Virus record (IMG/VR): IMGVR_UViG_2529292882_000005
Location: 1-24,208 of that record
Strand: one strand, 5' to 3'
Source: a virus
Lineage: Duplodnaviria > Heunggongvirae > Uroviricota > Caudoviricetes
Length of the DNA stretch: 24,208 nt
The position numbers and the translations under genes are program-made. Below are positions 1 to 14,224 of the stretch, piece by piece. The notes below the pieces were generated by a model. That model worked only from the letters and a program-made list of their open reading frames with translations. It ran no database searches and was not told the DNA's origin. Each line of letters opens with the position of its first letter. Positions within the stretch are counted from its first letter, which is position 1.

Positions 1-325
1 TACGCTCACAGTATTCTTCCCAGAGTAGCTGCAGCGTCACGCATTTATTACGCAGTTCCCGGTGTACTGTAGCCCAGTCAGGCAGAGAGTGCTTCTTCAT
101 CTTAACCTGGGTCTGAAGGAACGCATGTTTTAGTTTTGTATCATCCCATCCTGTAGGTAAGGGCCACTGCTTTATGCCAAGTTGAGCCGCCCGATTAGCA
201 TATCTGGATACAACGGAAGGGGAGATTGCAAGACTACGACCAATTTGTCGATGGCTGAGTCCAACACCGTATTTAAGCCTAAGAATTTCTTTAAGTTTTC
301 TCATAGAAATTGGAACTGTTGGCAT
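1..325 (-). CDS. istA: IS21-family transposase IstA, N-terminal portion (gene continues beyond the left window edge)
   Basis: Minus-strand translation from ATG at 325 (alternative in-frame ATG at 304) reads MPTVPISMRKLKEILRLKYGVGLSHRQIGRSLAISPSVVSRYANRAAQLGIKQWPLPTGWDD...HRELRNKCVTLQLLWEEYCER with no stop before position 1. The HTH-like N-terminus and the VTLQLLWEEY segment match my memory of IS21-family IstA proteins. Absent from the ORF track because it is open at the window edge. Confidence 0.75.
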   Translation of the reverse strand, partial: MPTVPISMRKLKEILRLKYGVGLSHRQIGRSLAISPSVVSRYANRAAQLGIKQWPLPTGWDDTKLKHAFLQTQVKMKKHSLPDWATVHRELRNKCVTLQLLWEEYCER

Positions 326-390
326 AGGTATCCTTTACCGGAATGGCAAAAGATACAGATCAACACACCTGTGAAGTTCCAATAACATTG

Positions 391-500
391 ATGGAGATCA
401 CTGAATAACAAAATGAGTCAAAAGTGATCTCCATCGATGTTATTCAGCGATCTGTTCAAATGTTATTACCCGATCTCGATGGAAGTTATTGAGTGATCTC
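391..500. repeat. IS terminal sub-repeats (GGAGATCA / TGATCTCC with CTGAATAA / TTATTCAG motifs, about three copies in both orientations)
   Basis: Seen directly: atggagatcactgaataacaa (391-411), agtgatctccatcgatgttattcagcg (about 424-450), cgatctcgatggaagttattgagtgatctcc (about 470-500). Interpreted as transposase-binding repeats of the IS end. Confidence 0.55.
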
Positions 501-640
501 CTTTCATGAAAATACGCAGTGGTCACTTATGCGGATATCAGGGCGAAACAAGCCGAAATTCTGAAAGCTGAGCAGGAATACATTCAGCGGTTGCGGGAAC
601 AGCCAAAAGGCTGGTCAGTGTTTATGAAGACTCACTGGAA

Positions 641-1021
641 TTGCCAGCTTCACAGTGGCGCGATATTAACGGCAAAGAACGTCCGTATGTTTATATTTTG
701 TGGAATGGGCACAATACAAAACCTGAGGATTTGCGAGTAGAGCTTCAGGATGGTGTCGCATTTGATTTGTGGACTGTCGTTGATGATAACCCTCGTCAGT
801 CTGCAAGCGTGAAGGTTGCGGTAAAGATTGTGTTGCTTGATGGCGATAACATAACGATTTCGGTTAATGGTTATCAGGTCAGAACATTTTCGCACGTAGA
901 TTCGCACGCAAAATTTAACGAGGTATGCGAGTTCATCAAAGACAGTATTTTAATGTCGATGAATGATGTGAAATTTGGCAAAGCATCTCTTCCGAAGATA
1001 GAGGGCTGGAGCCGAAAATAG
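641..1021 (+). CDS. hypothetical protein (126 aa as listed), AT-rich, start codon uncertain (TTG at 641, no ATG, no clear SD); possibly a disrupted gene
   Basis: ORF-track entry 641..1021. The frame is open from 572, and the overlapping ORF 519..740 is in another frame, suggesting a frameshifted or IS-truncated gene. Lower GC than neighbouring phage genes (eyeball estimate). Clean intrinsic terminator directly downstream. No family recognised. Confidence 0.4.
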   Translation: MPASQWRDINGKERPYVYILWNGHNTKPEDLRVELQDGVAFDLWTVVDDNPRQSASVKVAVKIVLLDGDNITISVNGYQVRTFSHVDSHAKFNEVCEFIKDSILMSMNDVKFGKASLPKIEGWSRK

Positions 1022-1043
1022 TTCGAAAATCTCTGAATCACCA

Positions 1044-1070
1044 GGCTACGCATTTGCGTGGCCTTTTTTG
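1044..1070 (+). terminator. rho-independent terminator after ORF 641-1021
   Basis: ggctacgc-attt-gcgtggcc hairpin (8 bp with one G-U wobble) followed by tttttt (1064-1069). Confidence 0.7.
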
Positions 1071-1205
1071 TATCCGCGCCACGCCCGGCGCACATCAAAA
1101 ACCACAGAGCCTTTCAGGGGTGAGCTTACGGGATGGTCAGTGTGACTTTCTCTGTGGGCTGGTCACCCCCGGGCGCAGGCTCACCCACTAAAAGGAAAAG
1201 TCACG

Positions 1206-1631
1206 ATGTTTGGTATTTTCAAAAAGAAAACCCGCAAGGCCATTACTGAAGTAAAGAAAATGGAGAACCGCGACGCAGTGGAGGCGACCGTCTGGGGTGC
1301 GTATTCCATCGCATTCGCCGACGGCACCTGTGATGCGAAAGAAATCGCGGTGCTGGAGAAAACCATTGCAGCACTTCCTGCTTTTGCGCCGTTCTCCGGT
1401 GAGATTGCACAAATGAGTGCAAATATCCGCGCCCGTTATGAAGCGTCGCCGCGTTCTGCCAATGCCGAAGCTCTTCGTCAGCTGGCTGATGTTGCCGGTA
1501 CTGATGATGCAGTTAATGTGCTGTGCCTGTGTCTGGATATCGCTGACCAGGATGGCATTGGTCCGGATGAAGAAGCACAGCTCAAGAAAATTGCTCAGGC
1601 GCTGCAGTTGCCGCTGGAGCAGTACCTGTGA
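1206..1631 (+). CDS. TerB-like (tellurite-resistance TerB family) domain protein, 141 aa
   Basis: ATG at 1206 preceded by aaaaggaaaag SD-like sequence. Two copies of the A-x-ADG...E...L...I..AL pattern (SIAFADGTCDAKEIAVLEKTIAAL and LCLDIADQDGIGPDEEAQLKKIAQALQL) typical of TerB domains as I recall them. E. coli-like codon usage. Confidence 0.55.
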   Translation: MFGIFKKKTRKAITEVKKMENRDAVEATVWGAYSIAFADGTCDAKEIAVLEKTIAALPAFAPFSGEIAQMSANIRARYEASPRSANAEALRQLADVAGTDDAVNVLCLCLDIADQDGIGPDEEAQLKKIAQALQLPLEQYL

Positions 1632-1780
1632 AAAGTGCGCGCCTTGTGTTGGCTGCCATCCTGCTGTTTCTGGTGGTGGCGGTGGATTTCACCGGACGGC
1701 TGATGTCGGTGCTGGCAGATGGTGTGCTGGTGGCGATGGCGCTGGTTGTGCTCCGGCCTTTACTGCGCAAATCTGAATAA
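1628..1780 (+). CDS. small hydrophobic protein, 50 aa, two predicted TM segments (V/M-KSARLVLAAILLFLVVAVDFTGRLMSVLADGVLVAMALVVLRPLLRKSE)
   Basis: GTG start overlaps the TerB-like stop codon (GTGA at 1628-1631), suggesting translational coupling. Strong G/C third-position bias (CTG, GTG, GCG codons). Below the 60-aa cut-off of the ORF track. The overlapping listed ORF 1417..1776 is judged spurious. Confidence 0.4.
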   Translation: MKSARLVLAAILLFLVVAVDFTGRLMSVLADGVLVAMALVVLRPLLRKSE

Positions 1781-2908: not shown

Positions 2909-2922
2909 TAACCAGGTGTGTT

Positions 2923-3105
2923 ATGAGCAGAAAACACTGGACACACAGAATGCCGCGAACGGCGGCGAAATGGGCACTGGTAGTGATACTGGTGCCTTTT
3001 TTATTGGTGGGATGCGTCAGCCTGGATAAGGCGCGCCAGCTTTTCGATACGGCTTCTCAGGTCTGCCAGCTTATCGATGGCGTTCGGCAGTGTCTGCAGA
3101 ACTGA
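2923..3105 (+). CDS. small lipoprotein (signal peptide with LVGC lipobox), possible o-spanin-like lysis accessory protein
   Basis: ATG at 2923. Sequence MSRKHWTHRMPRTAAKWALVVILVPFLLVGC followed by a short soluble tail containing two Cys. Immediately downstream of the endolysin. No partner i-spanin ORF detected. Confidence 0.5.
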   Translation: MSRKHWTHRMPRTAAKWALVVILVPFLLVGCVSLDKARQLFDTASQVCQLIDGVRQCLQN

Positions 3106-3276
3106 TCGCCTGTAAGAGCAGAATATTTTGCTGAAAAATGAAGGGTGCGCCAGCGTCCGGAAAGCATGAAATTCTGTGTTTGTGGCTACTCAATAAAATA
3201 AATTCTTTCTGTCGCCGCGAATACTCAAATGTTGATCAGTGCCCGGTGCGGCGACGGGCTTCGATATCAGGAGACG

Positions 3277-3576
3277 ATGATGGAAAAAACAGAAAACAAA
3301 CCGATTGTAATTGGTGCTGATGCTGCTCCGTTTAAGTTTGAGTTGTCTCAACTGGTGGAGATGCGCATCAGTGATGAATGGGGTGAGGTTAAAGCCCGCG
3401 CGCAGTATGCGTATGGCGAAAACCAGTACTTGATCCACTACAAAGCAGCTGATGGTCGCGCCACGACGGAGTGGTTTGGTGAGTCAATGCTGGAAGCAAC
3501 AGAAGATGATCGCCATCCGGGCTGTCCGGTATTTGCCGGTATGAAATTACCGGAAGGCGCAGTTGTTACTGAGTAA
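3277..3576 (+). CDS. hypothetical protein (about 98-99 aa), acidic, no TM segment
   Basis: ATG at 3277 or 3280, with aggaga SD at 3269-3274 favouring 3280. Uninterrupted frame. No family recognised. Confidence 0.5.
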   Translation: MMEKTENKPIVIGADAAPFKFELSQLVEMRISDEWGEVKARAQYAYGENQYLIHYKAADGRATTEWFGESMLEATEDDRHPGCPVFAGMKLPEGAVVTE

Positions 3577-3587
3577 CAGGCATTACA

Positions 3588-3624
3588 GCAGCCCTTCAGT
3601 GAGGGGCTGCGATAATGCTTGTTG
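3588..3624 (+). terminator. hairpin, possible weak terminator after ORF 3277-3576
   Basis: gcagccc-ttcagtgag-gggctgc (7-bp stem) followed by a moderately T-rich stretch (gataatgcttgttg); no strong U tract. Confidence 0.35.
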
Positions 3625-3631
3625 TAATTAG

Positions 3632-3667
3632 TTAATAAGAAATGAAAATGCGCCCTGACAAGGGCGC
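3632..3667 (-). terminator. rho-independent terminator for minus-strand ORF 3675-3872
   Basis: On the minus strand: GCGCCCT-tgtc-AGGGCGC hairpin followed by auuuucauuucuuauu, beginning 8 nt after the ORF stop. Confidence 0.55.
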
Positions 3668-3674
3668 AAAGGCA

Positions 3675-3872
3675 TTACGGATATGGATCTTCTTTTGCAT
3701 CACCCTGGCCGCTTAAAGCAGTCCATGAGTTTTTCGTATGCTCCTTAACGTTTCTGTTTGGGCAAGGTGGGAGGGATGTATTGGAGGATTTTGTAAAAGT
3801 GTATCCGCAATCATCACAGGAGTACGTCCCAGAAGATGTATCACTTCCATATGGAATGCCTGTTTTTTTCAT
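3675..3872 (-). CDS. small hypothetical protein (65 aa, Ser/Thr-rich, Cys motif CDDC...PPCP), moron-like
   Basis: ATG at 3872 with AGGA 7 nt upstream on the minus strand. Own terminator downstream. Lies in an AT-rich stretch (eyeball) between the lysis genes and cos, the position occupied by bor in lambda. Confidence 0.4.
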   Translation of the reverse strand: MKKTGIPYGSDTSSGTYSCDDCGYTFTKSSNTSLPPCPNRNVKEHTKNSWTALSGQGDAKEDPYP

Positions 3873-3978
3873 AAAAATATCCTGATTAAAACATCACAAC
3901 ATTGTGACCATACGAACATTGTGGTTTTGTGCGCGTATTTCAATATTGCTTTATTGATATGTGTGTGATTTACCTCAC

Positions 3979-4200
3979 GTTTTACGGGTCCTTTCCAGAA
4001 TCTGAAACACCGAGGGTCATAGCACGCGCAAAAACGCGCTATTTATGAAAATTTTTCAGGAAAAAGCATGTCGGTACTTCTCGCGCATAACTATTTGTTT
4101 TTTCTGACATCACATCAGTAAAAGGTCCGACATGAAAACACCCGAAAAAGGGCATTTTAAGCGTTTTCATGTCGGACCCTGTATTTGATAGAGAAATGTA
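3979..4200 (+). other. cos packaging site (cosQ-like, cosN region, cosB with three R-type repeats and an AT-rich IHF-like spacer)
   Basis: ttttacgggtcctttcc (3979-3995) and cgctatttatgaaaattttt (4037-4056) closely match the sequences flanking lambda cosN as I remember them. Three copies of CATGTCGGNNC at 4068-4078 (+), 4124-4134 (inverted) and 4168-4178 (+). Lies directly upstream of the Nu1-like gene. Confidence 0.7.
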
Positions 4201-4202
4201 TT

Positions 4203-4751
4203 GTGAAAGTTAACAAAAAGAAACTTGCTGAAATTTTCAACGTGGATCCGCGAACGATTGAACGCTGGCAGTCTCAGGGGCTATCTTGCGTCTCCGGAGG
4301 TAGCAAGGGTGTTGAATCGGTGTTTGATACCGCGATGGCAATTCAGTGGTACGCGCAGAGAGAAACTGATATCGAAAACGAAAAGCTCCGCAAAGAACTG
4401 GAAGATTTGCGTGCGGCTGCAGAATCAGATTTACAACCCGGCACCATTGACTATGAACGCTACCGGCTCACCAAAGCACAGGCTGACGCACAGGAGCTGA
4501 AAAATGCCCGTGAAGAAGGGCTGGTGCTGGAAACGGAATTGTTTACCTTCATTCTGCAACGTGTGGCACAGGAGATTTCGGGGATACTTGTACGTGTGCC
4601 GCTGACATTACAGCGTAAATATCCGGATATTTCACCGTCACACCTTGATGTGGTGAAAACTGAAATCGCGAAAGCCTCCAATGTTGCAGCTAAAGCCGGT
4701 GAAAACGTGGGCAGGTGGATAGATGATTTCAGACGCACAGAAGGCAGCTAA
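4203..4751 (+). CDS. nu1: terminase small subunit (lambda Nu1-like)
   Basis: Translation [27 protein letters not shown]...[24 protein letters not shown] matches lambda Nu1 closely. GTG at 4203 aligns with the lambda Nu1 start; the track start TTG at 4185 is the alternative. Confidence 0.9.
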
Positions 4752-6639
4752 TGCAGCCGGTGCGATAGCTACAGGGCTTTTATCTCTCAATATTCCGGTT
4801 CCACTGACGACGGTTCAGTGGGCTGATCAACATTATTATCTGCCGAAAGAATCTTCATACACTCCCGGACAATGGGAAACCCTGCCGTTTCAGGTTGCCA
4901 TTATGAACAGCATGGGAAATGACCGGATCCGCACCGTTAATCTGATTAAATCGGCGCGCGTTGGTTACACCAAAATGCTGTTGGGGGTGGAGGCTTATTT
5001 TATTGAGCATAAATCCCGTAACAGTCTGCTTTTTCAGCCAACAGATTCTGCGGCAGAAGATTTCATGAAATCTCATGTTGAGCCAACGATCAGGGATGTC
5101 CCTGCATTGCTGGAGCTGGCTCCATGGTTCGGAAGAAAGCACCGCGATAATACACTCACCCTGAAGCGTTTTTCCTCCGGTGTGGGGTTCTGGTGCCTGG
5201 GCGGTGCCGCAGCTAAAAACTACCGTGAAAAATCTGTGGATGTGGTCTGCTATGACGAACTCTCCTCGTTTGAACCGGATGTGGAAAAAGAAGGCTCGCC
5301 GACGCTGCTTGGCGATAAACGTATCGAAGGCTCGGTATGGCCTAAATCCATACGTGGCTCAACGCCGAAAATTAAAGGCTCCTGTCAGATTGAGAAAGCC
5401 GCGAATGAATCTGCGCATTTCATGCGGTTTTATGTCCCTTGCCCTCATTGCGGGGAGGCCCAGTATCTGAAGTTTGGCGATGATGCGACGCCGTCTGGCC
5501 TGAAATGGGAGAAGGGTAAACCGGAAACGGTGTATTACCTGTGTGAACATAATGGCTGTGTGATCCGGCAGTCGGAACTTGACCAGACCGACGGACGCTG
5601 GATTTGTGACAATACCGGGATGTGGACGCGCGACGGCCTGGCATTTTACAGCGCCGGTGATGAGGAGATACCGCCACCGCGCTCAATCACGTACCACGTG
5701 TGGACAGCGTACAGTCCGTTCACCACCTGGGTGCAGATTGTCTACGACTGGCTGGATGCGCTGAAGGATCCGAACGGCGTCAAGACGTTTATTAACACCA
5801 CGCTCGGGGAGCCCTATGAAGAGGCTGTGGCAGAAAAGCTGAGTTTTGAGTTGTTACTGGAAAAGGTCTGCCACTATGGTGCGCAGGTTCCCCTGCGGGT
5901 GGTTTACCTGACCGCAGGGATCGACTCCCAGAAAGATCGCTATGAAATTTATGTCTGGGGCTGGGCTCCCGGCGAAGAAGCCTTTCTGATTGATAAGCAA
6001 ATTATCATGGGGCGACCGGAAGACGAGGACACCCTTAAACGTGTTGATACGGTGATCCGGAAAAAATATCGTCATGCTGACGGTACTGAAATTTCCATTT
6101 CCCGTGTCTGCTGGGATACCGGTGGTATCGACCAGGACATTGTGTATCAGCGTTCAAGGAAACACGGCACTTTTTTTGTGCTTCCCATAAAAGGGGCATC
6201 GGTGTACGGCAAGCCGGTGATCACCATGCCCAAAAAGCGCAACCAGCGTGGTGTGTTTTTGTGTGAGGTGGGCTCAGATACCGTCAAGGAAATGCTGTAC
6301 GCCCGTTTTGCCCTGCCAGTGGTCTCTGCCAGTGAAGCCGCCCCGTACACCTTCCGTTTTCCGGATAACCCCGACATTTTTTCGGAAGAAGAGGCGCGTC
6401 AGATCGTGGCGGAAGAGCTGGTGGAGAAGGTGGTTAATGGCAGGGTGAAACTGCTGTGGGATAAAAAAGGACGACGCAACGAAGCCCTCGACTGCCTGGT
6501 ATATGCCTATGCTGCCCTGCGTATTTCAGTTCAGCGGTGGCAGCTGGATCTTGAAGCACTGGCCCGTGCCAGAAGAGATGAGCAGGACGACGATGAGATG
6601 AGTCTGGAAGAAATCGCGGCTGCACTGAGTGGAGGATAA
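4723..6639 (+). CDS. A: terminase large subunit (lambda gpA-like)
   Basis: 638 aa. [58 protein letters not shown] and [33 protein letters not shown] are near-identical to lambda gpA segments. Start overlaps the Nu1 3' end as in lambda. Confidence 0.95.
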
Positions 6640-6642
6640 AGA

Positions 6643-6852
6643 ATGGTTTATACGCATGAAATGCTTTGTGATGCCCGTCGGGCATTACATGAACTGATGA
6701 TCGGACGTGCTGTGGTTTCCGTCAGCAAGGACGGGCGTCAGGTTCAGTATTCGCGGGCGACGATTGGTGAACTGCGTCAGTATATTGAAGAGCTGGAAAG
6801 TGCGCTGGGTGTATCCGGACGGCGTCGCGGCCCGGCAGGAGTGGGGCTGTGA
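6643..6852 (+). CDS. W: head-tail joining protein (lambda gpW-like)
   Basis: 69 aa. ARRALHELMIGRAVVSVSKDGRQVQYSRATIGELRQYIEELE...RRRGPAG resembles lambda gpW. ggagga SD upstream. Confidence 0.9.
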   Translation: MVYTHEMLCDARRALHELMIGRAVVSVSKDGRQVQYSRATIGELRQYIEELESALGVSGRRRGPAGVGL

Positions 6853-8420
6853 ACGGGGAACTGGTGGATCTTCACGGGCAGCCACTGCGGCAGAGTATGG
6901 GGTATTCCGGAGGGGGTACCGGATTTGGCGGGCAGCTTGCGGAATGGCTGCCTGCACCGGAAAGTGCCGACGTGGCGCTCTTACCTTCCATTCAGCTGGG
7001 TAACGCCCGTGCGGATGATCTGGTCCGCAATAACGGTATTGCCGCAAACGCCGTTGAAATTCATAAAGACCATATCGTCGGACACATGTTTCGTCTGAGT
7101 TACCGGCCCAACTGGCGCTGGCTGGGGATGTCGGAAGCCGATTCACATGTCTTTATTGAAGATGTTGAGGCAGCGTGGATGGAATTCTGCGATCCGGTGT
7201 TTGGTTCGATGGATGTGGAGGGGCGTCGCTCGTTTACCGAATTTATTCGTGAAGGGGTGGGCGTTCATACATTTAACGGTGAAATTTTTGTCCAGCCCGT
7301 ATGGGATACGGAATCCACGTCATTATTCCGGACGAAATTCAAGACCATCAGCCCGAAACGTGTCAGTACACCCGGTTATGGTACCGGCGATCGTTTTATG
7401 CGTGCCGGGGTGGAAATCAACCGGTACGGAAAAGCACTGGCCTACCATGTTCAGGAAGATGACTGGCCCGGTTACGGTGTCAGCAACTGGACGCGGATTG
7501 CGGCGACGCTGCCCTCCGGGCGACCGGGAATGATCCATGTGTTTCAGCCGCAGGAGGACGGGCAGACGCGCGGGGCCAACCAGTTTTATTCTGTCATGGA
7601 GCGTCTCAAGATGCTCGACACACTGCAGGCCACGCAACTGCAGTCGGCGGTGGTGCGGGCGATGTATGCCGCGACGATTGAATCCACGCTGGATTCGGAA
7701 AAAGCATTTGAATATATCGCCGGGGTGGGAGATGGCGGTAAAAATCCCCTGAACACCATCATGAAAGGCTACGCGCGTTATTACGCCACCAATACGGTAA
7801 AGCTGGGTGGGGTCCGTATTCCGCATCTTTATCCGGGGGATTCACTGAATCTGCAGACAGCGCAGAATGCAGATAATGGTTTCTCTGAACTGGAAAAGGC
7901 GCTGTTACGTTACATCGCTGCCGGACTGGGGGTGTCCTATGAACAGCTTTCCCGTGATTATTCACAGGTCAGTTATTCCAGTGCCAGGGCATCCGCCAAT
8001 GAGTCGTGGCGGTATTTTATGGGCAAACGAAAATTTGTGGCCAGTCGACTGGCATCACAGATGTTTGCCTGCTGGCTGGAGGAAGCCCTTATTCGCGGTG
8101 TGATCCGCCCGCCGAAATCCCGTTTTTCATTCTGGGAGGCCCGTTCCGGATGGTGTCGTGCCGAGTGGATTGGTGCCGGTCGCATGGCGATTGATGGCCT
8201 TAAGGAAGTGCAGGAAGCGGTGATGCGTATTGAAGGTGGTTTAAGCACGTACGAGAAAGAGCTGGCCCTGATGGGCGATGACTATCAGGAGATTTTCCGT
8301 CAGCAACTGCGTGAAAGCCAGGAGCGACAGGCAGCGGGTCTTCCCCGCCCCATCTGGATAAAGGACACGTTTCAGCAGCAGATCCGACAGACAACGGGAG
8401 AAAAAGGCGATGCGTCGTAA
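6849..8420 (+). CDS. B: portal protein (lambda gpB-like)
   Basis: GTG start overlapping the W stop (GTGA). Long conserved runs versus lambda gpB (ADDLVRNNGIAANA, GQTRGANQFYSVMERLKMLDTLQ, LNLQTAQNADNGFSELEKALLRYIAAGLGVSYEQLSR). Confidence 0.95.
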   Translation: MNGELVDLHGQPLRQSMGYSGGGTGFGGQLAEWLPAPESADVALLPSIQLGNARADDLVRNNGIAANAVEIHKDHIVGHMFRLSYRPNWRWLGMSEADSHVFIEDVEAAWMEFCDPVFGSMDVEGRRSFTEFIREGVGVHTFNGEIFVQPVWDTESTSLFRTKFKTISPKRVSTPGYGTGDRFMRAGVEINRYGKALAYHVQEDDWPGYGVSNWTRIAATLPSGRPGMIHVFQPQEDGQTRGANQFYSVMERLKMLDTLQATQLQSAVVRAMYAATIESTLDSEKAFEYIAGVGDGGKNPLNTIMKGYARYYATNTVKLGGVRIPHLYPGDSLNLQTAQNADNGFSELEKALLRYIAAGLGVSYEQLSRDYSQVSYSSARASANESWRYFMGKRKFVASRLASQMFACWLEEALIRGVIRPPKSRFSFWEARSGWCRAEWIGAGRMAIDGLKEVQEAVMRIEGGLSTYEKELALMGDDYQEIFRQQLRESQERQAAGLPRPIWIKDTFQQQIRQTTGEKGDAS

Positions 8421-10026
8421 TTTATCGCATATTGCCGCCATGGCATTTAATGAGCCGCTTTTACTGGAACCCGCCTATGCGCGGGTTTTCTTTTGCGCGC
8501 TGGGTAAAGAGATAGGGGCCGGCAGCCTTGCCGTTCCTCAGCAGGCTGTTCAGCTTGATGCTGATGGTATGCAACTGGCGGTGACTGACTATATGGCGGG
8601 CGGTCAGCGTCCGGCAAAGAGTTACCAGGTGAAGAATGGCATTGCCATTCTGCCGGTGAGCGGCACGCTGGTGCATAAACTGGGTACCCTGCGGCCTTAC
8701 TCCGGCATGACAGGCTATGACGGTCTGACTGCTCGTCTTCAGATGGCGGTGAATGATCCGGATGTGCGCGGCATTTTGCTGGATATCGACAGCCCGGGCG
8801 GTCAGGCTGCCGGGGCGTTTGACTGTGCTGACATGATTTACCGTCTGCGGGAACAGAAGCCCGTGTGGGCGCTGTGTAATGACATGGCCTGTTCAGCCGC
8901 CATGTTGCTGGCGGCAGCCTGTACCCGTCGGCTGGTCACGCAGACGGCAAAAATTGGTTCGATTGGCGTGATGATGGCGCACACCAGTTATGAGAAACAA
9001 CTGGCACAGGAAGGGGTGGACATCACGCTGATTTACTCCGGGCAGCACAAGGTTGACGGCAACAGTATTCAGGCATTGCCGGCAGGTGTGCGTGCAGATT
9101 TTCAGCGCCGTATTGATGAGGCCCGCCGGATGTTTGTCGACAAGGTGGCGCTTTATACGGGGCTGAGTTCAGAGGCAGTGATGAATACCGAGGCTGCCGT
9201 TTATGACGGTCAGGCAGGCATTGATGCAGGCCTGGCTGATCAACTGATTAATGCTGCAGATGCCGTTGAAGTGATGGTTTCTGCACTGAATGACTCTGTT
9301 ACGAAGGAGAATGCAATGACTGTTAAAAATCTCACCGTTGCTGAAGCGGTGGCCCAGGAAAATCAGCGCGTGATGGGGATCCTGAATTGTCAGGAGGCGA
9401 AAGGGCGCGAGCAACTGGCGCAAATGCTGGCAGGTCAACCTGGAATGACGGTTGAGCAGGCGAAAACGTTGCTGGCTGCTGCGCCGGTTGCCGGTACTGA
9501 CAGCACGGGTGATCAGATTATGGCGCTGCCGGAAGCAAAGGGGCGTGAACAACTGGCACAGATGCTGGCAGGTCAACCGGGGATGACGGTGGCGCAGGCG
9601 AAAGCGTTTCTGGCGGCAGCCCCTGCTGCCGGTGCTGCAGGCGCAGGCGATCAGATTATGGCGTTACCGGAAGCAAAAGGGCGTGAACAACTCGCGCAGG
9701 CGCTGGCTGAACAGCCGGGAATGACCGTTGACCAGGCCAAAACGTTACTGGCGGCGGCACCGGTTGCGGGCTCTGCAAGTGTCGGCGATCAGATTATGGC
9801 GCTGCCGGAGGCGAAAGGGCGCGAACAACTTGCACAGGCACTGACAGAACAGCCAGGAATGACGGTGGCGCAGGCGAAAACGCTGCTGGCAGCCGCGCCG
9901 GCGGCATCGCAACCGTCACAGGAAACACTTTTTGATCGCTTTATGGCACAGCATGCTGCCAGTGCGGTTTCCGGTGGCGGAACTGCCGGGCGCGGGGAGG
10001 AAGACCTGCTGATGAGTATGCCGTAA
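8410..10026 (+). CDS. C: prohead protease / scaffold fusion (lambda gpC-like, S49 ClpP-type), 538 aa, with expanded C-terminal repeat region
   Basis: N-terminal two thirds align with lambda gpC (IAAMAFNEPLLLEPAYARVFFCAL, YSGMTGYDGL, VWALCNDMACSAAMLLAAACTRRLVTQTAKIGSIGVMMAH). The C-terminus carries four tandem 46-aa units related to the lambda Nu3 region. Confidence 0.9.
   Translation: MRRNLSHIAAMAFNEPLLLEPAYARVFFCALGKEIGAGSLAVPQQAVQLDADGMQLAVTDYMAGGQRPAKSYQVKNGIAILPVSGTLVHKLGTLRPYSGMTGYDGLTARLQMAVNDPDVRGILLDIDSPGGQAAGAFDCADMIYRLREQKPVWALCNDMACSAAMLLAAACTRRLVTQTAKIGSIGVMMAHTSYEKQLAQEGVDITLIYSGQHKVDGNSIQALPAGVRADFQRRIDEARRMFVDKVALYTGLSSEAVMNTEAAVYDGQAGIDAGLADQLINAADAVEVMVSALNDSVTKENAMTVKNLTVAEAVAQENQRVMGILNCQEAKGREQLAQMLAGQPGMTVEQAKTLLAAAPVAGTDSTGDQIMALPEAKGREQLAQMLAGQPGMTVAQAKAFLAAAPAAGAAGAGDQIMALPEAKGREQLAQALAEQPGMTVDQAKTLLAAAPVAGSASVGDQIMALPEAKGREQLAQALTEQPGMTVAQAKTLLAAAPAASQPSQETLFDRFMAQHAASAVSGGGTAGRGEEDLLMSMP
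9316..10026 (+). CDS. nu3: putative scaffolding protein (lambda Nu3-like) from an in-frame internal start within gene C
   Basis: In-frame ATG at 9316 preceded by AAGGAGA (9304-9310). The product MTVKNLTVAEAVAQENQRVMGILNCQEAKGRE... parallels lambda Nu3, which is nested in-frame in the 3' part of C. Confidence 0.55.
   Translation: MTVKNLTVAEAVAQENQRVMGILNCQEAKGREQLAQMLAGQPGMTVEQAKTLLAAAPVAGTDSTGDQIMALPEAKGREQLAQMLAGQPGMTVAQAKAFLAAAPAAGAAGAGDQIMALPEAKGREQLAQALAEQPGMTVDQAKTLLAAAPVAGSASVGDQIMALPEAKGREQLAQALTEQPGMTVAQAKTLLAAAPAASQPSQETLFDRFMAQHAASAVSGGGTAGRGEEDLLMSMP
9394..9945 (+). repeat. tandem direct repeat, period 138 nt (46 codons), 4 copies (last one partial/divergent), inside the scaffold-coding part of gene C
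   Basis: Unit starts at 9394, 9532, 9670 and 9808. Each encodes EAKGREQLAQ(M/A)LA(G/E)QPGMTV(E/A/D)QAK(T/A)LLAAAP...GDQIMALP. Copies differ by scattered, mostly silent or conservative changes. Confidence 0.85.
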
Positions 10027-10064
10027 GCGATATCCGGAATTCAGATAAATCAGGAGGCTGAAAA

Positions 10065-10400
10065 ATGATTAAAACCACCACGGAAAAGCGCGCGGATGTG
10101 CACATTTTTGCCGGAAACGATCCGGCGCATACCGCAAAAGCCACCAGTGGTATCAGTGCCGCCATGCCTGCACTGACGCCACTGATGCTGGATGACGCCA
10201 CCGGTAAACTGGTGGCATGGGATGGTCAGAAAGCCGGAACGGCAGTGGGCGTGCTGGCTCTGGCGCTTACCGGGACCGAGTCCATGCTGACGTACTACAA
10301 AAGCGGTACATTTGCCACTGAGTCGCTGGTCTGGCCTGATTCTGTGGATGCGGTGAAAAAAGCCAACGCATTTGTGGGAAGTGCCATCAGCCACGCCTGA
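10065..10400 (+). CDS. D: head decoration protein (lambda gpD-like)
   Basis: 111 aa. NDPAHTAKATSGISAAMPALTPLMLDDATGKLVAWDG...YYKSGTF matches lambda gpD. caggagg SD upstream. Confidence 0.9.
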   Translation: MIKTTTEKRADVHIFAGNDPAHTAKATSGISAAMPALTPLMLDDATGKLVAWDGQKAGTAVGVLALALTGTESMLTYYKSGTFATESLVWPDSVDAVKKANAFVGSAISHA

Positions 10401-10420
10401 TGGTGAAGTGATTGACTGAA

Positions 10421-10455
10421 AAAACGGGTCGCGATGCGGCCCGTTTGTGTTTCTG
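10421..10455 (+). terminator. putative intrinsic terminator or attenuating hairpin between D and E
   Basis: aacgggtcgc-gat-gcggcccgtt stem (one G-U wobble) followed by tgtgtttct (interrupted T tract). Confidence 0.45.
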
Positions 10456-10469
10456 AAGGAAAATAAATT

Positions 10470-11498
10470 ATGGGGTTATTTACCACGCGTCAGTTACTCG
10501 GGTACACCGAGCAGAAAGTGAAATTTCGTGCGCTGTTTCTGGAGCTGTTCTTTCGTCGCACGATCACTTTCCATACTCAGGAAGTCATGCTGGATAAAAT
10601 TACCGGCAAAACACCGGTTGCGGCGTATGTGTCTCCGGTGGTGTCAGGCAAAGTGCTGCGCAGCCGTGGTGGTGAAACCCGCGTGTTACGTCCCGGTTAT
10701 GTAAAACCAAAACACCGCTTTGATTATCAGCAGGCAGTGGAACGTCTTCCGGGGGAAGATCCGTCCCGTCTTAATGACCCGGCCTACCGCCGCCTGCGTA
10801 TTCTGACGGACAACCTGAAACAGGAAGAGCAGGCGATTGTGCAGGTGGAAGAAATGCAGGCGGTCAGTGCCGTTCTGCAGGGTAAATACACCATGAGCGG
10901 CGAGCAGTTTGAGACAGTGGAAGTGGATTTTGGGCGTTCTGCCGCCAATAACATTACGCAGGCTGGCGGACGCGAATGGTCAAAGCAGAATGCTGACACC
11001 TTTGATCCGACGCATGATCTGGATGCGTACTGCGATTTTGCTTCCGGCACCATCAATATCGCGATTATGGACGGCACGGTCTGGCGTATGCTGAACGGTT
11101 TTAAACTGTTCCGTGAAAAACTGGATACCCGCCGTGGCTCCAAATCTGAGCTGGAAACGGCACTGAAAGACCTGGGTTCCGTGGTTTCCTTTAAGGGCTG
11201 GTACGGCGATCTGGCTGTCGTGGTGGCGAAGACAACGTATGTTGACGAAAACGGGGATGAACAGCGTTATCTGCCGGAAGGTACACTGATTCTGGGAAAC
11301 ACTCAGGCGGAGGGCGTCCGTTGCTATGGCGCAATCCAGGATAATCAGGCGCTGAGTGAAGGGATCACCTCTGCGATTCGTTATCCGAAACACTGGGAGG
11401 AAGTGGGGGATCCTGGTTGCGAATATACCATGACGCAGTCTGCGCCGTTGATGGTGCTGCCGGATCCGGATGCGTTTGTGGTGGTTCAGGTGAAATAA
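10470..11498 (+). CDS. E: major capsid protein (lambda gpE-like)
   Basis: 342 aa. YVSPVVSGKVLRSRGG, PGYVKPKH, EEMQAVSAVLQGKYTMSGEQFE, LDTRRGSKSELETALKDLG and TMTQSAPLMVLPDPDAFVVVQV match lambda gpE. Confidence 0.95.
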   Translation: MGLFTTRQLLGYTEQKVKFRALFLELFFRRTITFHTQEVMLDKITGKTPVAAYVSPVVSGKVLRSRGGETRVLRPGYVKPKHRFDYQQAVERLPGEDPSRLNDPAYRRLRILTDNLKQEEQAIVQVEEMQAVSAVLQGKYTMSGEQFETVEVDFGRSAANNITQAGGREWSKQNADTFDPTHDLDAYCDFASGTINIAIMDGTVWRMLNGFKLFREKLDTRRGSKSELETALKDLGSVVSFKGWYGDLAVVVAKTTYVDENGDEQRYLPEGTLILGNTQAEGVRCYGAIQDNQALSEGITSAIRYPKHWEEVGDPGCEYTMTQSAPLMVLPDPDAFVVVQVK

Positions 11499-11501
11499 GA
11501 C

Positions 11502-11530
11502 GGGGCGGGATATACCCGCCTTTTTCTTTA
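11502..11530 (+). terminator. rho-independent terminator after the major capsid gene
   Basis: ggcggg-atata-cccgcc hairpin followed by tttttcttta. Confidence 0.7.
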
Positions 11531-11548
11531 TCGCACGGGAGAGATGTG

Positions 11549-11914
11549 ATGACAAAAGAGCAGATGACGGAACGCCTTCAGGCGCTGGCAGTGATTCTGG
11601 GGCGTGAAGCAGATATTTCAGGTTCAAAAGCCGATCTTGAGCAGCGTCTGGCGGAATGGGAGGAGGAGGCCGCTGGATTCGATGGGGAGGAGACGGGGAA
11701 GGAAGAGGTGGGCAACGATGCATCCGGCGACGGAATGCATTCTGAGCAGGGACTCGCCCGGGTGCGTATGCTGAAAACGGCGCATATGCCAGCCTGTGAT
11801 GCTGTGACGGGAAAAATGTTGATGTTTGCCCGGGCCTTCAGTGTTGTGCTGGTTAATGAAGCCACAGTTCCCGCGTTGCTGGCAGACGGTCTGGCAGAAA
11901 AAATCCGGGAGTGA
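11549..11914 (+). CDS. FI: DNA packaging protein (lambda gpFI-like)
   Basis: ATG at 11549 with gggagag SD. MTKEQMTERLQAL...SKADLEQRLAEWEEE parallels the lambda FI N-terminus (MTKDELIARLRSL...TKEELALRVAELKEE). The track ORF 11417..11914 has an unsupported upstream start. Confidence 0.8.
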   Translation: MTKEQMTERLQALAVILGREADISGSKADLEQRLAEWEEEAAGFDGEETGKEEVGNDASGDGMHSEQGLARVRMLKTAHMPACDAVTGKMLMFARAFSVVLVNEATVPALLADGLAEKIRE

Positions 11915-12318
11915 TGATGTTCAATAATCTGTTCGATCAGGCCATGAGTGATGCGGATGACATCATCCTGGATACGATGGGGACGGAAATCAGCATATAT
12001 CCGGGCGGCACGGAAAGAAAAATCCGTGCCGTTTTTGATGCCCCGGCAGATAACACCGGGATTAACACTGGCAGCGGCGAAATTCGTGATACTGCGCCCG
12101 TGTTATTTACCCGGAGCGCATGGGCCGCCGGTCTGAAAAAATATGACAGGGTCATGATCCACGGCGAACCCTATCAGGTAGTCGATCCCGGCTGGGATGA
12201 GTCAGGCACTGCGGGTCAGGGGGTGATTACCATCACCCTTGCGCGTGGAGAGCCGGGGAGAAATACACCTGCTGCCCCTGTCCGACCGAGTAAACGTTAT
12301 GGCAGTCAGAGAGCATGA
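11914..12318 (+). CDS. FII: head-tail connector / head completion protein (lambda gpFII-like)
   Basis: ATG at 11914 overlapping the FI stop (TGATG). FNNLFDQAMSDADDIILDTMGTEISI...RAVFDAP...GSGEIRDTAPVLFTRS parallels lambda FII. Confidence 0.85.
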   Translation: MMFNNLFDQAMSDADDIILDTMGTEISIYPGGTERKIRAVFDAPADNTGINTGSGEIRDTAPVLFTRSAWAAGLKKYDRVMIHGEPYQVVDPGWDESGTAGQGVITITLARGEPGRNTPAAPVRPSKRYGSQRA

Positions 12319-13021
12319 ACGAAGCAGTGCCCGGCAGCGACGGCTGGCACGAAACCTCGTCGTCGATATTGATGAAGATGAGGTGCTGAAAATTATCGCT
12401 AAACTGGGTGGGTCAAAAAGTCAGATCCGTAAAGCCTGGGGCGTGGCGCTGAAAAGAGCCGCGTCTGCACTGCGGATGAAGGCTATGGTAGAGTTTAAAA
12501 AACAGGTTGCCCCACGCAGTCAGAAAATGATCAAAAAGCGTGTTCTGCATAATTTTATCATTCGTCGTAACGGTGATGAGTTTGATGAGGCGAAGGTATG
12601 GTTCGGTCTGAACGCCATCAAAGTACGCGATCTGCGCGGACGCATCAGTGGGGGACGATGCGGCGAACGCCATCAGTTGCGCGATGAGCGGGGGCGTTTT
12701 GCACCAGCTTCTCACCGCAGGAAGGCACGGGAGATCCGTTTTAAACCTGCCGGGGAATCCCTGCCTGTCAGCACCTGGTCAACGGATGATGCCTTTATCA
12801 ACCAGTTCGAAGCGGAAAATCGTAACGGACGTATATCAAAAAGGAAAACGATACTGATCCGACAGACATCCGGACGACGGAGGGTGCGTGAAGCGGAAAT
12901 TGATATTTATGAAGCCATGCTGAACCGTATAGAGGATTTTGTTTTTCCGGATGCGGAAGTACTGATCCTGAAAAATTTTGAGCATGAACTGAAATTCCGG
13001 GTATTTAAGGGGCTGGAGTGA
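12299..13021 (+). CDS. hypothetical basic protein (about 240 aa), putative tail completion protein at the head-tail module junction (tentatively lambda gpZ-like)
   Basis: Uninterrupted frame. ATG at 12299 overlaps the FII 3' end. Arg/Lys-rich. Occupies the position of Z in lambda gene order (FII-Z-U). Family assignment is tentative (composition and position only); the start codon is uncertain. Confidence 0.5.
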   Translation: MAVREHERSSARQRRLARNLVVDIDEDEVLKIIAKLGGSKSQIRKAWGVALKRAASALRMKAMVEFKKQVAPRSQKMIKKRVLHNFIIRRNGDEFDEAKVWFGLNAIKVRDLRGRISGGRCGERHQLRDERGRFAPASHRRKAREIRFKPAGESLPVSTWSTDDAFINQFEAENRNGRISKRKTILIRQTSGRRRVREAEIDIYEAMLNRIEDFVFPDAEVLILKNFEHELKFRVFKGLE

Positions 13022-14191: not shown

Positions 14192-14224
14192 TCCCCTTTC
14201 AGTTCTTTTTCCGGAATAAACAAC

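What the first reader, a model, noticed from the sequence alone, without database searches (positions are those of the whole stretch)
3979..4200. Lambda-type cos with conserved flanks but a divergent cosN core, and three CATGTCGGNNC R-type repeats
Sequences matching the lambda cosQ side (ttacgggtcctttcc) and the lambda cosB start (cgctatttatgaaaatttt) bracket about 40 nt that do not contain the lambda cohesive-end sequence GGGCGGCGACCT as I remember it. Downstream, a motif occurs three times in + / inverted / + orientation with an AT-rich IHF-like spacer, mirroring the lambda R3-I1-R2-R1 architecture but with a different repeat sequence. This suggests a terminase with lambda-type architecture but different nicking and binding specificity.
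Basis: partly seen in the sequence, partly recalled or inferred. Interest (0 to 1): 0.45.

Follow-up and report, generated by a model that had tools for sequence, protein, structure and literature searches.

The report
Alternative cut site in lambda-type cos
This is the DNA-packaging (cos) site of an E. coli prophage: its terminase-binding repeats are the known phage-21 type, but its cutting site belongs to a common, apparently undescribed class with highly variable sticky ends that always goes with one lineage of the cutting enzyme's nuclease domain.

Summary
Window 3986-4181 is a complete lambda-family cos site (cosQ, cosN, I2, cosB) upstream of Nu1-type terS and gpA-type terL.

The three CATGTCGGNNC repeats are not new. 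They are phage 21's annotated R3, R2 and R1, and TerS is 92-97% identical to 21 gp1.

The core is different. No GGGCGGCGACCT is present; the aligned 12-mer is GGTCATAGCACG (4015-4026).

- This "V-type" cosN occurs in about 80 phage/prophage loci and 547 of 5,426 complete E. coli genomes.
- Its flanks are fixed (GAAACACCGRG^GG...ACR^CGC) and its centre is hypervariable: 26 distinct cores in 80 loci.
- Loci with identical nuclease domains carry different cores.
- At least four cosB/TerS cassettes occur with both cosN classes. The class always predicts the lineage of the TerL C-terminal (nuclease) half and head module: 0 exceptions in 44 loci, and 0 in 29 replication loci.
- Terminase-less PICI satellites with two cos sites are V/V or L/L, never mixed.

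Nick positions are inferred, not measured; a 14-nt overhang is not excluded. Specific recognition of V-type cosN by TerL is a comparative inference.

Verdict: a new variant of a known kind, of moderate interest.

The parts
3986..3992 (+). cosQ (GGGTCCT), the packaging-termination element
   Evidence: Identical to lambda and to the cosQ annotated in phage 21. Invariant in all related loci.
3993..4014 (+). Left arm between cosQ and the top-strand nick (22 nt). Its last 11 nt, GAAACACCGAG (4004-4014), are the class-defining conserved flank.
   Evidence: In a sample anchored only on the right flank, 29 of 30 distinct sequences carry GAAACACCG or a single-base variant. The lambda arm is 23 nt and ends in TTACG.
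4015..4026 (.). cosN core: inferred 12-nt 5' cohesive end GGTCATAGCACG. Top-strand nick at 4014/4015, bottom-strand nick at 4026/4027. Alternative: a 14-nt end at 4013-4026.
   Evidence: Aligns with lambda and 21 bp 1-12. In the ungapped family profile, positions 15-17 (CGC) are invariant, and the Hafnia phage yong2 record terminus falls between positions 14 and 15. R3 then starts at bp 50, as in phage 21. The hybrid locus L216 joins an ...ACG^ arm at exactly this boundary. Positions are inferred, not measured.
4027..4036 (+). Right flank CGCAAAAACG. The first three bases (CGC) are invariant in the family.
   Evidence: The lambda equivalent is CGCGGGTTTT.
4037..4059 (+). I2 element (CGCTATTTATGAAAATTTTTCAG), the conserved spacer between cosN and R3
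   Evidence: Matches 21 and lambda. PMC4856287 reports that I2 is strongly conserved in lambda-like phages.
4064..4079 (+). cosB R3, a TerS binding site of phage 21 type (aagCATGTCGGTACtt)
   Evidence: Corresponds to bp 50-65 annotated as cosB R3 in OL657228; 14 of 16 positions identical.
4088..4100 (+). I1, the IHF binding site (TAACTATTTGTTT)
   Evidence: Corresponds to the I1 annotated in phage 21 at bp 74-86; 12 of 13 positions identical.
4122..4137 (-). cosB R2, in inverted orientation
   Evidence: Identical to phage 21 R2 (aaggtccgacatgaaa, bp 107-122).
4165..4181 (+). cosB R1
   Evidence: Corresponds to phage 21 R1 at bp 150-166; 15 of 17 positions identical.
4203..4751 (+). terS (Nu1 family, GTG start, 182 aa), phage 21 gp1 type
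   Evidence: Pfam Phage_Nu1, E = 6e-83. 92-97% identical to 21 gp1. RefSeq annotates the same ORF in E. coli cq9 and 52F4.
4723..6639 (+). terL (gpA family, 638 aa). ATPase domain at residues 46-293 and nuclease domain at 323-602. A mosaic break lies near residue 360 (nt ~5800): the N-terminal half is 21-like, and the C-terminal half belongs to the lineage that accompanies V-type cosN.
   Evidence: Pfam. 82% identical to 21 gp2 and 84% to Gifsy-1 overall. Against L214, identity per 40-aa bin is 90-100% up to about residue 360 and 52-85% after it. 36 of 38 class-diagnostic columns lie in residues 375-634.
6643..8420 (+). gpW-like head-tail joining protein (6643-6852) and lambda-family portal (6849-8420). 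This is the start of the head module that co-segregates with the cosN class.
   Evidence: Pfam gpW and Phage_portal_2. Portal identity is 0.98 between V loci and 0.73 between V and L loci.

Best explanation
Window 3986-4181 is the functional cos site of a prophage with a lambda-family packaging module (Nu1-type TerS, gpA-type TerL).

Proposed mechanism:
- TerS, of phage 21 specificity, binds R3, R2 and R1. IHF bends the DNA at I1.
- This anchors TerL, whose C-terminal endonuclease nicks the bottom strand a fixed distance from R3 (4026/4027). A second TerL nicks the top strand 12 nt upstream (4014/4015).
- The product is a 5' cohesive end, GGTCATAGCACG. cosQ (3986-3992) serves termination.

The cosN is not a decayed lambda cosN. 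It belongs to a widespread alternative class, which I call V-type. Its conserved positions lie mostly outside and at the edges of the overhang (GAAACACCGRG^GG...ACR^CGC), and overhang positions 3-9 are free to vary.

This class is used by a distinct lineage of TerL C-terminal (nuclease) domains. I infer that this nuclease reads the flanks and not the interior of the overhang, so V-type and lambda-type terminases are probably not freely interchangeable on each other's cosN.

Shown by the evidence: the anatomy, homology to the phage 21 cosB, family conservation, and the co-segregation. Inferred: the exact nick positions, the 12-nt overhang length, and enzyme-site specificity.
For: Anatomy and 21-type cosB/TerS.

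The V class is real and under selection:
- About 55 distinct sequences align without gaps, with invariant flanks and a variable centre.
- It occurs in 547 of 5,426 complete E. coli genomes.
- There are 26 distinct cores in 80 V loci, against 10 in 124 L-flank loci, of which 83% are canonical.
- Loci with 100% identical nuclease domains carry different cores.

Nick frame:
- The yong2 linear record breaks between family positions 14 and 15.
- R3 is at bp 50, as in phage 21.
- Published work shows that nick position is set by the distance from cosB (PMC4856287).
- The L216 hybrid junction falls at this boundary.
- L016 keeps the ^CG flank only in this frame.

cosN class versus TerL:
- Within the 21/Gifsy TerL clade, 22 V and 22 L loci form separate subclades at 85% identity.
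- Four cosB/TerS-DBD cassettes occur with both classes, and the class always predicts the TerL subclade.
- 36 of 38 diagnostic columns lie in residues 375-634; V-L identity is 0.87 in residues 1-250 and 0.74 in residues 371-600.
- Sequence upstream of cosQ is unrelated among V loci, with at least 6 types.
- Replication on 29 further loci gave no exceptions.
- The same trend appears in a TerL clade only ~30% identical to the window's (yong2 and Chris1 against LLS).

Rpp-type PICI satellites, which have no TerL, carry two cos sites that are V/V (5 islands) or L/L (2 islands), never mixed.
Against: - No virion ends were measured for this phage or for any close relative.
- The one physical-looking terminus (yong2) is a GenBank record boundary of unknown provenance. 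The LLS cohesive end I used for alignment is itself inferred, not measured.
- gpW, portal and protease also split V from L. The cosN class therefore co-segregates with a whole head-module lineage, not demonstrably with the nuclease domain alone.
- The nuclease domain is no more diverged than the portal.
- Nick-proximal bases resemble lambda's. Some V cores are nearly lambda-like (GGGCGGCAGACG), and one core (GGGCGGGAGCGG) occurs with both arm types. The enzymes may therefore cross-react.
- No residue is shared by all V-type TerL clades and absent from all L-type clades.
- Loci are phylogenetically non-independent, so the counts overstate the number of independent events.
Confidence: 0.68

Rival explanations
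1. Neutral-lineage reading. V-type cosN is only a drifted sequence variant that any gpA-family TerL would cut once TerS positions it. Its perfect association with one TerL C-terminal/head lineage reflects common descent plus cassette exchange by double crossover, not enzyme-site specificity.
For: - TerL endonuclease is described as not highly sequence-specific and as positioned by TerS-cosB (PMC9026076).
- Lambda and N15 terminases show no cosN specificity for right-half changes.
- The whole head module, not just the nuclease domain, co-segregates with the class.
- Cores vary freely.
- Overlapping cores occur with both arm types.
Against: - The TerL N-terminal half is undifferentiated between classes (V-L identity up to 97%), so crossovers occur between cosN and the C-terminal domain. 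Yet no mismatched pair appears in 44 + 29 loci.
- Upstream flanks are also mosaic.
- The 10-11 nt left arm is conserved in 29 of 30 sequences in an unbiased sample, which implies selection on it.
- Satellites without a TerL keep both of their cos sites in one class.
Confidence: 0.24
2. Different cutting geometry. The site is cut to give a 14-nt 5' overhang, AGGGTCATAGCACG (4013-4026). This would keep lambda's rule of CG dinucleotides flanking both nicks (CCG^AG...ACG^CG). This rival is compatible with the main explanation in every respect except overhang length.
For: - C and G at family positions -1 and 0 are invariant.
- Published surveys stress conserved CG flanks at both nicks.
- Lambda-like terminases with a 9-nt end exist (PMC9303873).
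- The left nick is not fixed by any record terminus.
Against: - The gap-free yong2/LLS alignment puts the L-type ACG^ at the position of V-type GAG^.
- The L216 hybrid has ACG^ directly before GGTC.
- The dyad scan favours a centre at 8.5 (0.51) over 7.5 (0.42), although the control shows the method is noisy.
- Characterised relatives have a 12-nt stagger.
Confidence: 0.2
3. Decayed cos. The prophage is defective and its cosN has been mutated beyond function.
For: - The site lacks the canonical cohesive end.
- The closely related cq9 prophage has a frameshifted head protease.
- V-type sites are rare among isolated phages: I found only 4 records.
Against: - Flanks are invariant and the centre variable across about 55 distinct sequences, which is a selection signature and not decay.
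- terS, terL, gpW, portal and the protease ORFs are intact in the window.
- The same class occurs in isolated phages yong2 and Chris1 and in PICI satellites.
Confidence: 0.03
4. One reading: the CATGTCGGNNC repeats define a new TerS binding specificity.
For: The repeats differ from lambda's R sequences.
Against: They are the annotated R3, R2 and R1 of phage 21, at the same spacing, and TerS is 92-97% identical to 21 gp1. IdasGreatGrand carries the same cosB with a canonical cosN.
Confidence: 0.02

Closest known systems
Phage 21 cos and terminase (cosB-21, gp1/gp2)
   Same: - Order and spacing of I2, R3, I1, R2 and R1.
- R-site sequences: R2 is identical; R3 and R1 each differ at 2 positions.
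- TerS is 92-97% identical.
- The first ~360 residues of TerL are about 78-100% identical per 40-aa bin to 21-type proteins.
- cosQ is identical.

   Different: - The cohesive-end sequence: GGTCATAGCACG against GGGCGGCGACCT.
- The left flank: ...GAAACACCGAG^ (22-nt arm) against ...CAGGTTACG^ (23-nt arm).
- The right flank: CGCAAAAAC against CGCGGTTTTT.
- The TerL C-terminal half is only about 50-85% identical per bin.
- The downstream head and tail modules differ; this prophage has a contractile-tail baseplate.
Lambda-like cosN as defined by Feiss and co-workers (lambda, 434, phi80, 21, N15, Monarch, Gifsy-1; PMC4669245; Vahanian et al. 2017)
   Same: cosQ, I2 and the ^CG flank on the right. 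The overhang starts with GG. The enzyme family is the same. The stagger is probably 12 nt with a 5' extension.
   Different: - In the published set, variation is confined to bp 7-12. Citing papers say the first 4 bp (GGGC) and the CG on both sides are conserved.
- In the window, bp 3 and 5-7 differ from lambda.
- The left flank is AG, not CG, in the preferred frame.
- The family's variable zone is bp 3-9.
Gifsy-1 (closest TerL among isolated phages, 84% identical)
   Same: Same TerL clade. Its cosB type (CAGATCCGTTCTTC) also occurs combined with V-type cosN, for example in SerU-LTIIb.
   Different: Gifsy-1 itself has an L-type cosN (GGGCGGCAGCGT) with a TTACG^ arm.
Rpp-type PICI satellites (EcCICFT073; Fillol-Salom 2018 and 2019; Murialdo & Feiss 2022)
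   Same: They use a helper phage's lambda-family terminase through cosQ + cosN. They have two cos sites flanking rpp. I found V-type versions of these islands.
   Different: The window is a phage and not a satellite; it encodes its own TerS and TerL. The published PICI cos sites are described as near-identical to lambda's cosN.

Membership tests
Lambda-family cos packaging module (Nu1/gpA terminase with cosQ-cosN-cosB) | TerS of the Nu1 family and TerL of the gpA family (ATPase + nuclease domains) immediately downstream of the site | tested here: met
   Pfam Phage_Nu1 at 6e-83, GpA_ATPase at 8e-55, GpA_nuclease at 1.5e-67.
Lambda-family cos packaging module (Nu1/gpA terminase with cosQ-cosN-cosB) | 7-bp cosQ (GGGTCCT) about 22-24 bp upstream of the nick | tested here: met
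   cosQ lies at 3986-3992, 22 nt from the inferred nick. The distance is 23 nt in lambda, 22 in LLS and 24 in Stx2_95.
Lambda-family cos packaging module (Nu1/gpA terminase with cosQ-cosN-cosB) | cosB with R3-I1-R2-R1, R2 inverted, and I2 between cosN and R3 | tested here: met
Lambda-family cos packaging module (Nu1/gpA terminase with cosQ-cosN-cosB) | Virion DNA with 12-nt 5' cohesive ends generated at cosN | not testable with these tools
   There is only indirect positional evidence. No contig ends at the site.
'Lambda-like phages' in the strict sense of Feiss et al. [quoted passage not shown] | Cohesive-end sequence closely similar to GGGCGGCGACCT, with differences confined to bp 7-12 | tested here: not met
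   5 of 12 positions are identical. Differences include bp 3, 5 and 6. The definition is taken from PMC4669245.
'Lambda-like phages' in the strict sense of Feiss et al. [quoted passage not shown] | CG dinucleotide immediately flanking both nicks | tested here: inconclusive
   The right flank is CG and is invariant. The left flank is AG in the 12-nt frame, and would be CG only with a 14-nt overhang.
Phage 21 packaging specificity (cosB-21 / gp1) | R sequences of the 21 type (CATGTCGG core) at the positions annotated in phage 21 | tested here: met
   R3 matches at 14 of 16 positions, R2 at 16 of 16 and R1 at 15 of 17, with the same spacing apart from one extra base before R2.
Phage 21 packaging specificity (cosB-21 / gp1) | TerS DNA-binding domain of gp1 type | tested here: met
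   92% identity over residues 1-60. The segment [18 protein letters not shown] is identical. Binding itself was not tested.
V-type cosN class (defined here) | 22-nt arm ending GAAACACCGRG, then GG-K-N6-AC-R, then CGC | tested here: met
   The window fits every conserved column of the 55-sequence profile.
V-type cosN class (defined here) | TerL C-terminal domain of the V lineage | tested here: met
   The window's TerL falls in subclade 10. Its C-terminal domain is 99.7-100% identical to those of other V loci.
Stx2e phage P27 | Sequence similarity of the packaging module | tested here: not met
   P27 (AJ298298) is in the collection but gave no hit to the window's cos, terS or terL.

The most novel reading that the evidence does not exclude
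Enterobacterial lambda-family phages have two cosN recognition modes.

- The classical mode reads the inside of the overhang (GGGCG is fixed).
- The second mode reads the outside flank (GAAACACCGRG^GG is fixed), which frees the sticky-end core to diversify.

If this is right, each V-type lineage carries an essentially private cohesive end. The cosN class, together with the core sequence, would then act as a compatibility barrier. It would determine which co-resident prophages and PICI satellites can be cut, packaged and re-circularised by which terminase. The TerL C-terminal domain would be the determinant.
Probability: 0.3. Interest if true: 0.65.

Novelty: new variant of a known kind. Interest (0 to 1): 0.5.

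Why it matters
How lambda TerL recognises cosN is still open. Recent reviews ask whether precise nicking depends on rigid positioning by TerS or on local TerL-cosN contacts (PMC9026076).

This family supplies natural chimeras. Their cosB, TerS and TerL ATPase halves are near-identical to those of phage 21 relatives, but they carry a different nuclease half and a different cosN. That makes a clean domain-swap and site-swap experiment possible.

The class is not rare. It is in about 10% of complete E. coli genomes, including relatives of Stx2e-converting prophages of pig pathogens and Rpp-type pathogenicity islands. It therefore bears on which helper phages can mobilise which toxin phages and islands.

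Practically, cos-finding and phage-termini annotation that look for GGGCGGCGACCT will miss these sites.

Tried and rejected
1. My first nick frame (4013-4024, AGGGTCATAGCA, with CG on both sides) is rejected. L016 breaks the ^CG flank in that frame. It would put R3 2 bp further from the nick than in phage 21. The yong2 terminus is 2 nt further right.

2. I looked for contigs that start or end at the site. A right-flank scan of IMG/VR and a left-arm scan of metagenome contigs found none.

3. A genome-contig scan gave only 3 enterobacterial hits among 10. The other hits lack the CGC part and are chance matches.

4. A literature string search for the core and arm sequences found no phage paper.

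5. Vahanian et al. 2017 (Virology 509:140), the key survey of natural cosN variation, could not be read. I only have what citing papers say about it.

6. I looked for residues shared by all V-type TerL clades and absent from all L-type clades. Nine columns separate the two sets, but none has a single V-specific residue.

7. The sequence search of solved structures found no homologue of this TerL. I did not run structure prediction, because the tool gives no coordinates for mapping residues.

8. The dyad-symmetry scan is too noisy to settle 12 nt against 14 nt.

9. I first assumed that the window is an Stx2e prophage. Only 1686-16348 matches the fetched 24.5-kb stretch of the cq9 Stx2e prophage (which ends there), and 1-1685 does not match that stretch, which includes its stx2e genes.

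10. The portal and gpW test for a nuclease-specific association failed: the whole head module co-segregates with the class.

Full report
**What is in the sequence.**

Window 3979-4200 lies between a lysis cassette and the packaging genes. The lysis cassette holds holins and an M15 endolysin at 2525-2908. The packaging genes are a Nu1-family terS (GTG 4203-4751) and a gpA-family terL (4723-6639), followed by gpW, a lambda-family portal, head genes and a contractile-tail/baseplate module.

- GGGTCCTTTCC (cosQ GGGTCCT = 3986-3992) and CGCTATTTATGAAAATTTTT (about 4037-4059) match lambda and phage 21. The latter is the I2 element, which the literature reports as strongly conserved in lambda-like phages (PMC4856287).
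- GGGCGGCGACCT is absent.
- CATGTCGGNNC occurs exactly three times in 24 kb, at 4067-4077 (+), 4124-4134 (-) and 4168-4178 (+), against 0.28 expected.

**The repeats are phage 21's cosB, not a new specificity.**

BLAST against phage genomes matches the window from 4039 onward to phage 21 at 82% and to phage IdasGreatGrand at 87%. The annotated phage 21 record (OL657228) places R3 at bp 50-65, I1 at 74-86, R2 (inverted) at 107-122 and R1 at 150-166. In the alignment these fall on window 4064-4079, 4088-4100, 4122-4137 and 4165-4181. R2 is identical, and R3 and R1 each differ at two positions.

TerS is 92%, 95% and 97% identical to 21 gp1 over its three thirds. The helix-turn-helix segment [18 protein letters not shown] is identical. 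Binding specificity is therefore the classical 21 type.

**The core is a member of a large alternative class.**

IdasGreatGrand has essentially the same cosB with a canonical lambda cosN, so the window's core is not a consequence of its cosB type. The partial prophage SerU-LTIIb and phage 705R4 share the window's odd core but have other cosB/TerS types.

A pattern scan of IMG/VR for the left-hand signature returned 70 loci. The 55 distinct sequences in the profile align without gaps as CACCG(0) R G | G G K N N N N N N A C R | C G C R.

Because that pattern forced AAACACCG, I checked the arm in a sample anchored only on the right flank. 29 of 30 distinct sequences carry GAAACACCG or a single-base variant.

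The class, here called V-type, is enterobacterial. It is present in 547 of 5,426 complete E. coli genomes, with up to six copies in one genome. I found it in only four records of the 50,697-record phage collection: SerU-LTIIb, 705R4, Hafnia phage yong2 and Citrobacter phage Chris1.

The window differs from its 99%-identical relatives by A instead of G at 4013. That position is naturally polymorphic in the family (A 24, G 30, C 1). One genome, E. coli 52F4, matches exactly.

**Where the nicks probably are.**

Five observations agree on a bottom-strand nick at 4026/4027.
1. The linear record of yong2 ends ...GACA and begins CGCGGG, which is between family positions 14 and 15.
2. Positions 15-17 (CGC) are invariant while position 14 is R. 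This matches the published rule that the CG after the nick is conserved and bp 12 is variable. L016 (CACGCA) keeps ^CG only in this frame.
3. R3 then begins at bp 50 exactly as in phage 21. Published work shows that nick positions shift with cosN-cosB spacing, meaning they are measured from cosB.
4. MAFFT independently aligns 4015-4026 with lambda bp 1-12.
5. Locus L216 is a natural hybrid: an mEp213/LLS-type arm ending ...GCCACG is joined directly to GGTCTGGGGACG^CGCA.

A 12-nt stagger then gives GGTCATAGCACG (4015-4026), with a top-strand nick at 4014/4015.

The left nick is less secure. The LLS end that I used to align yong2 is itself inferred. A 14-nt end (4013-4026) would restore CG flanks on both sides. 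A dyad scan prefers the 12-nt centre (0.51 against 0.42), but the lambda control shows the method is noisy. No contig in IMG/VR or the metagenome collection ends at the site.

**Variability.**

V-type sites show 26 distinct 12-mers in 80 loci, and the commonest makes up 21%. Entropy is 1-1.85 bits at positions 3-9, while GG (positions 1-2) and AC (positions 10-11) are nearly fixed.

A scan with lambda-type flanks and a free 12-mer gave 10 distinct cores in 124 loci. 83% were canonical, GGGCG was invariant, and variation fell at positions 6-12. That agrees with the published pattern of a conserved left half and a variable right half.

Within the window's own TerL subclade there are 11 cores in 22 loci. 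Loci whose nuclease domains (residues 323-602) are 100% identical carry cores that differ at up to 6 of 12 positions. The enzyme therefore does not read the centre of the overhang.

**Does the enzyme go with the site?**

The window's TerL is 82% identical to 21 gp2, 84% to Gifsy-1 and 67% to lambda A. All of those phages have L-type cosN.

I clustered 105 TerLs taken from V and L loci. The 21/Gifsy clade holds 22 V and 22 L loci, and at 85% identity they fall into separate subclades. Four different cosB/TerS-DBD cassettes each occur with both cosN classes: the 21 type, the Gifsy-1 type, the PhiR12 type and a GAGATTTTTTGAGGGGG type. The cosN class always predicts the TerL subclade.

The 38 alignment columns that separate V from L all lie at residue 254 or beyond. 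28 are in the Pfam GpA_nuclease domain, 8 in the C-terminal tail and 2 in the ATPase domain. V-L identity is 0.87 in residues 1-250, the same as L-L, but 0.74 in residues 371-600, against 0.97 for V-V. Against L214 (21-type cosB, canonical cosN), the window is 90-100% identical per 40-aa bin up to about residue 360 and 52-85% beyond it.

Sequence upstream of cosQ falls into at least six unrelated types among V loci. So the ~45-bp V unit is an island between recombining flanks, yet it stays paired with the TerL C-terminal half.

In 29 further loci that were not used to define the classes there was no exception.

A weaker replicate exists in a TerL clade only ~30% identical to the window's. Yong2 (V) against LLS (L) shows mostly 78-95% identity in the N-terminal half and 60-70% in the C-terminal half, while yong2 against Chris1 (both V) shows 72-88% there.

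**An important limit.**

gpW, the portal and the protease also separate V from L (portal 0.98 within V, 0.73 between V and L). What co-segregates with cosN is therefore a head-module lineage that begins at the TerL C-terminal domain. The nuclease domain is the only part of that module known to touch cosN, so it is the natural candidate, but the data do not isolate it.

**Independent support from satellites.**

Some V-type sites have no terminase downstream. In L281 the neighbourhood is, in order: a D5-type primase, SSB, gpE-like and gpD-like capsid genes, a V-type cos, a 146-aa protein, a second convergent V-type cos with a phage-type cosB but no terS, and an autotransporter. The 146-aa protein matches RppC (PDB 6HLK) at E = 1.5e-33. 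This is the two-cos layout published for the PICI EcCICFT073, whose cosN resembles lambda's and which lambda and phi80 package.

A homologous ExPEC island (strain HM670) has L-type cosN at both of its sites. Among Rpp-type islands with both sites readable, five are V/V, two are L/L and none is mixed. The two cores within each V/V island differ. Elements that encode no TerL thus still keep both of their cos sites in one class. That is what one would expect if the class must match the helper's TerL.

**Comparison with what is known.**

By architecture and proteins this is a lambda-family cos with phage 21 recognition specificity.

[quoted passage not shown] It also departs from the conservation rule attributed to Vahanian et al. 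2017, that the first 4 bp and the CG flanks are conserved.

I could not read Vahanian et al. 2017 itself. No paper in the searchable library contains the V-type arm or core in a phage context, and the papers mentioning both cosN and cosQ do not describe such a class. I therefore rate it a new variant of a known kind, with the caveat that the unread 2017 survey might mention it.

**Context.**

The window is 97.9% identical over 13.4 kb (2915-16348) to the morphogenetic region of an Stx2e-converting prophage of porcine E. coli cq9, up to the end of the stretch fetched. Window 1-1685 does not match the fetched stretch of that prophage, which includes its stx genes. Phage P27 does not share this packaging module.

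Noticed in passing
L281:4299-5106 (also L029, L038, L282, L290; L-type versions in L209 and L293): Rpp-type PICI satellites carry two convergent cos sites flanking rpp. One site has the Rpp-specific cosB (ACACCACCACCACTTG) and the other has a complete phage-type cosB but no terS. V/V versions exist alongside the published lambda-type ones. The two cores within a V/V island differ. The phage-type cosB of cos2 varies between islands (PhiR12 type, the GGGTGGTTGTTG type and others), which suggests that each island can use two kinds of helper.
   Followed up: partly
window 5800 (TerL residue ~360): There is a sharp mosaic junction inside terL. Upstream of it the protein is 90-100% identical per 40-aa bin to a 21-like TerL from a canonical-cosN prophage (L214). 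Downstream it is 52-85% identical. The break lies just inside the Pfam nuclease domain (323-602), close to the ATPase/nuclease boundary.
   Followed up: yes
L216 (IMGVR_UViG_2531839265_000001), about 50 nt upstream of its CGCGCAAAAACG match: A natural hybrid cos: an mEp213/LLS-type 23-nt left arm ending GCCACG is joined to a V-type core and right flank (GGTCTGGGGACG^CGCA). The contig ends before the TerL C-terminal domain, so I could not see which nuclease lineage accompanies it.
   Followed up: partly
window 4013: The window has A where its 99%-identical porcine E. coli relatives have G, two bases before the inferred top-strand nick. The position is polymorphic in the family (A 24, G 30, C 1). 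Only E. coli 52F4 (calf, Switzerland) matched the 61-nt cos core exactly.
   Followed up: yes
window 1-1685, 1206-1631: The first 1.7 kb does not match the fetched stretch of the Stx2e prophage of E. coli cq9, which matches the window from 1686 on. In place of stx2e and the tRNA genes there is a TerB-family gene (1206-1631) and a small DUF3927-like ORF. In strain 52F4 an ISEc12 element sits between these genes and the holins.
   Followed up: partly
L089 (phage HK225) 170-200; L291/L292 (Stx2_95, VT1-Sakai): There are further natural L-type cosN variants in isolated phages: HK225 has GGGCGGCGTCCG^CGCAGA, and the Stx phages have GAACACG^GGGCGGGCGGCG^CGGAAAAAGG with a 24-nt cosQ-to-nick arm. The cosQ-to-nick distance therefore ranges from 22 to 24 nt among relatives.
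   Followed up: no
phage collection versus E. coli genomes: V-type cos is in about 10% of complete E. coli genomes, but I found it in only 4 of 50,697 deposited phage records. These prophages and islands are strongly under-represented among isolated phages, for reasons unknown.
   Followed up: no
window 8410-10026 versus L006 16561-18178: The head protease/scaffold (S49 peptidase) ORF is intact in the window (538 aa) but is annotated as frameshifted in the near-identical prophage of E. coli cq9.
   Followed up: no
L038 versus L231/L234: The same 12-mer, GGGCGGGAGCGG, occurs with a V-type arm (L038) and with an L-type TACG arm (L231, L234). The V core GGGCGGCAGACG differs from an L core, GGGCGGCAGACT, only at position 12. 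Arm type, not core sequence, is what separates the two classes.
   Followed up: partly
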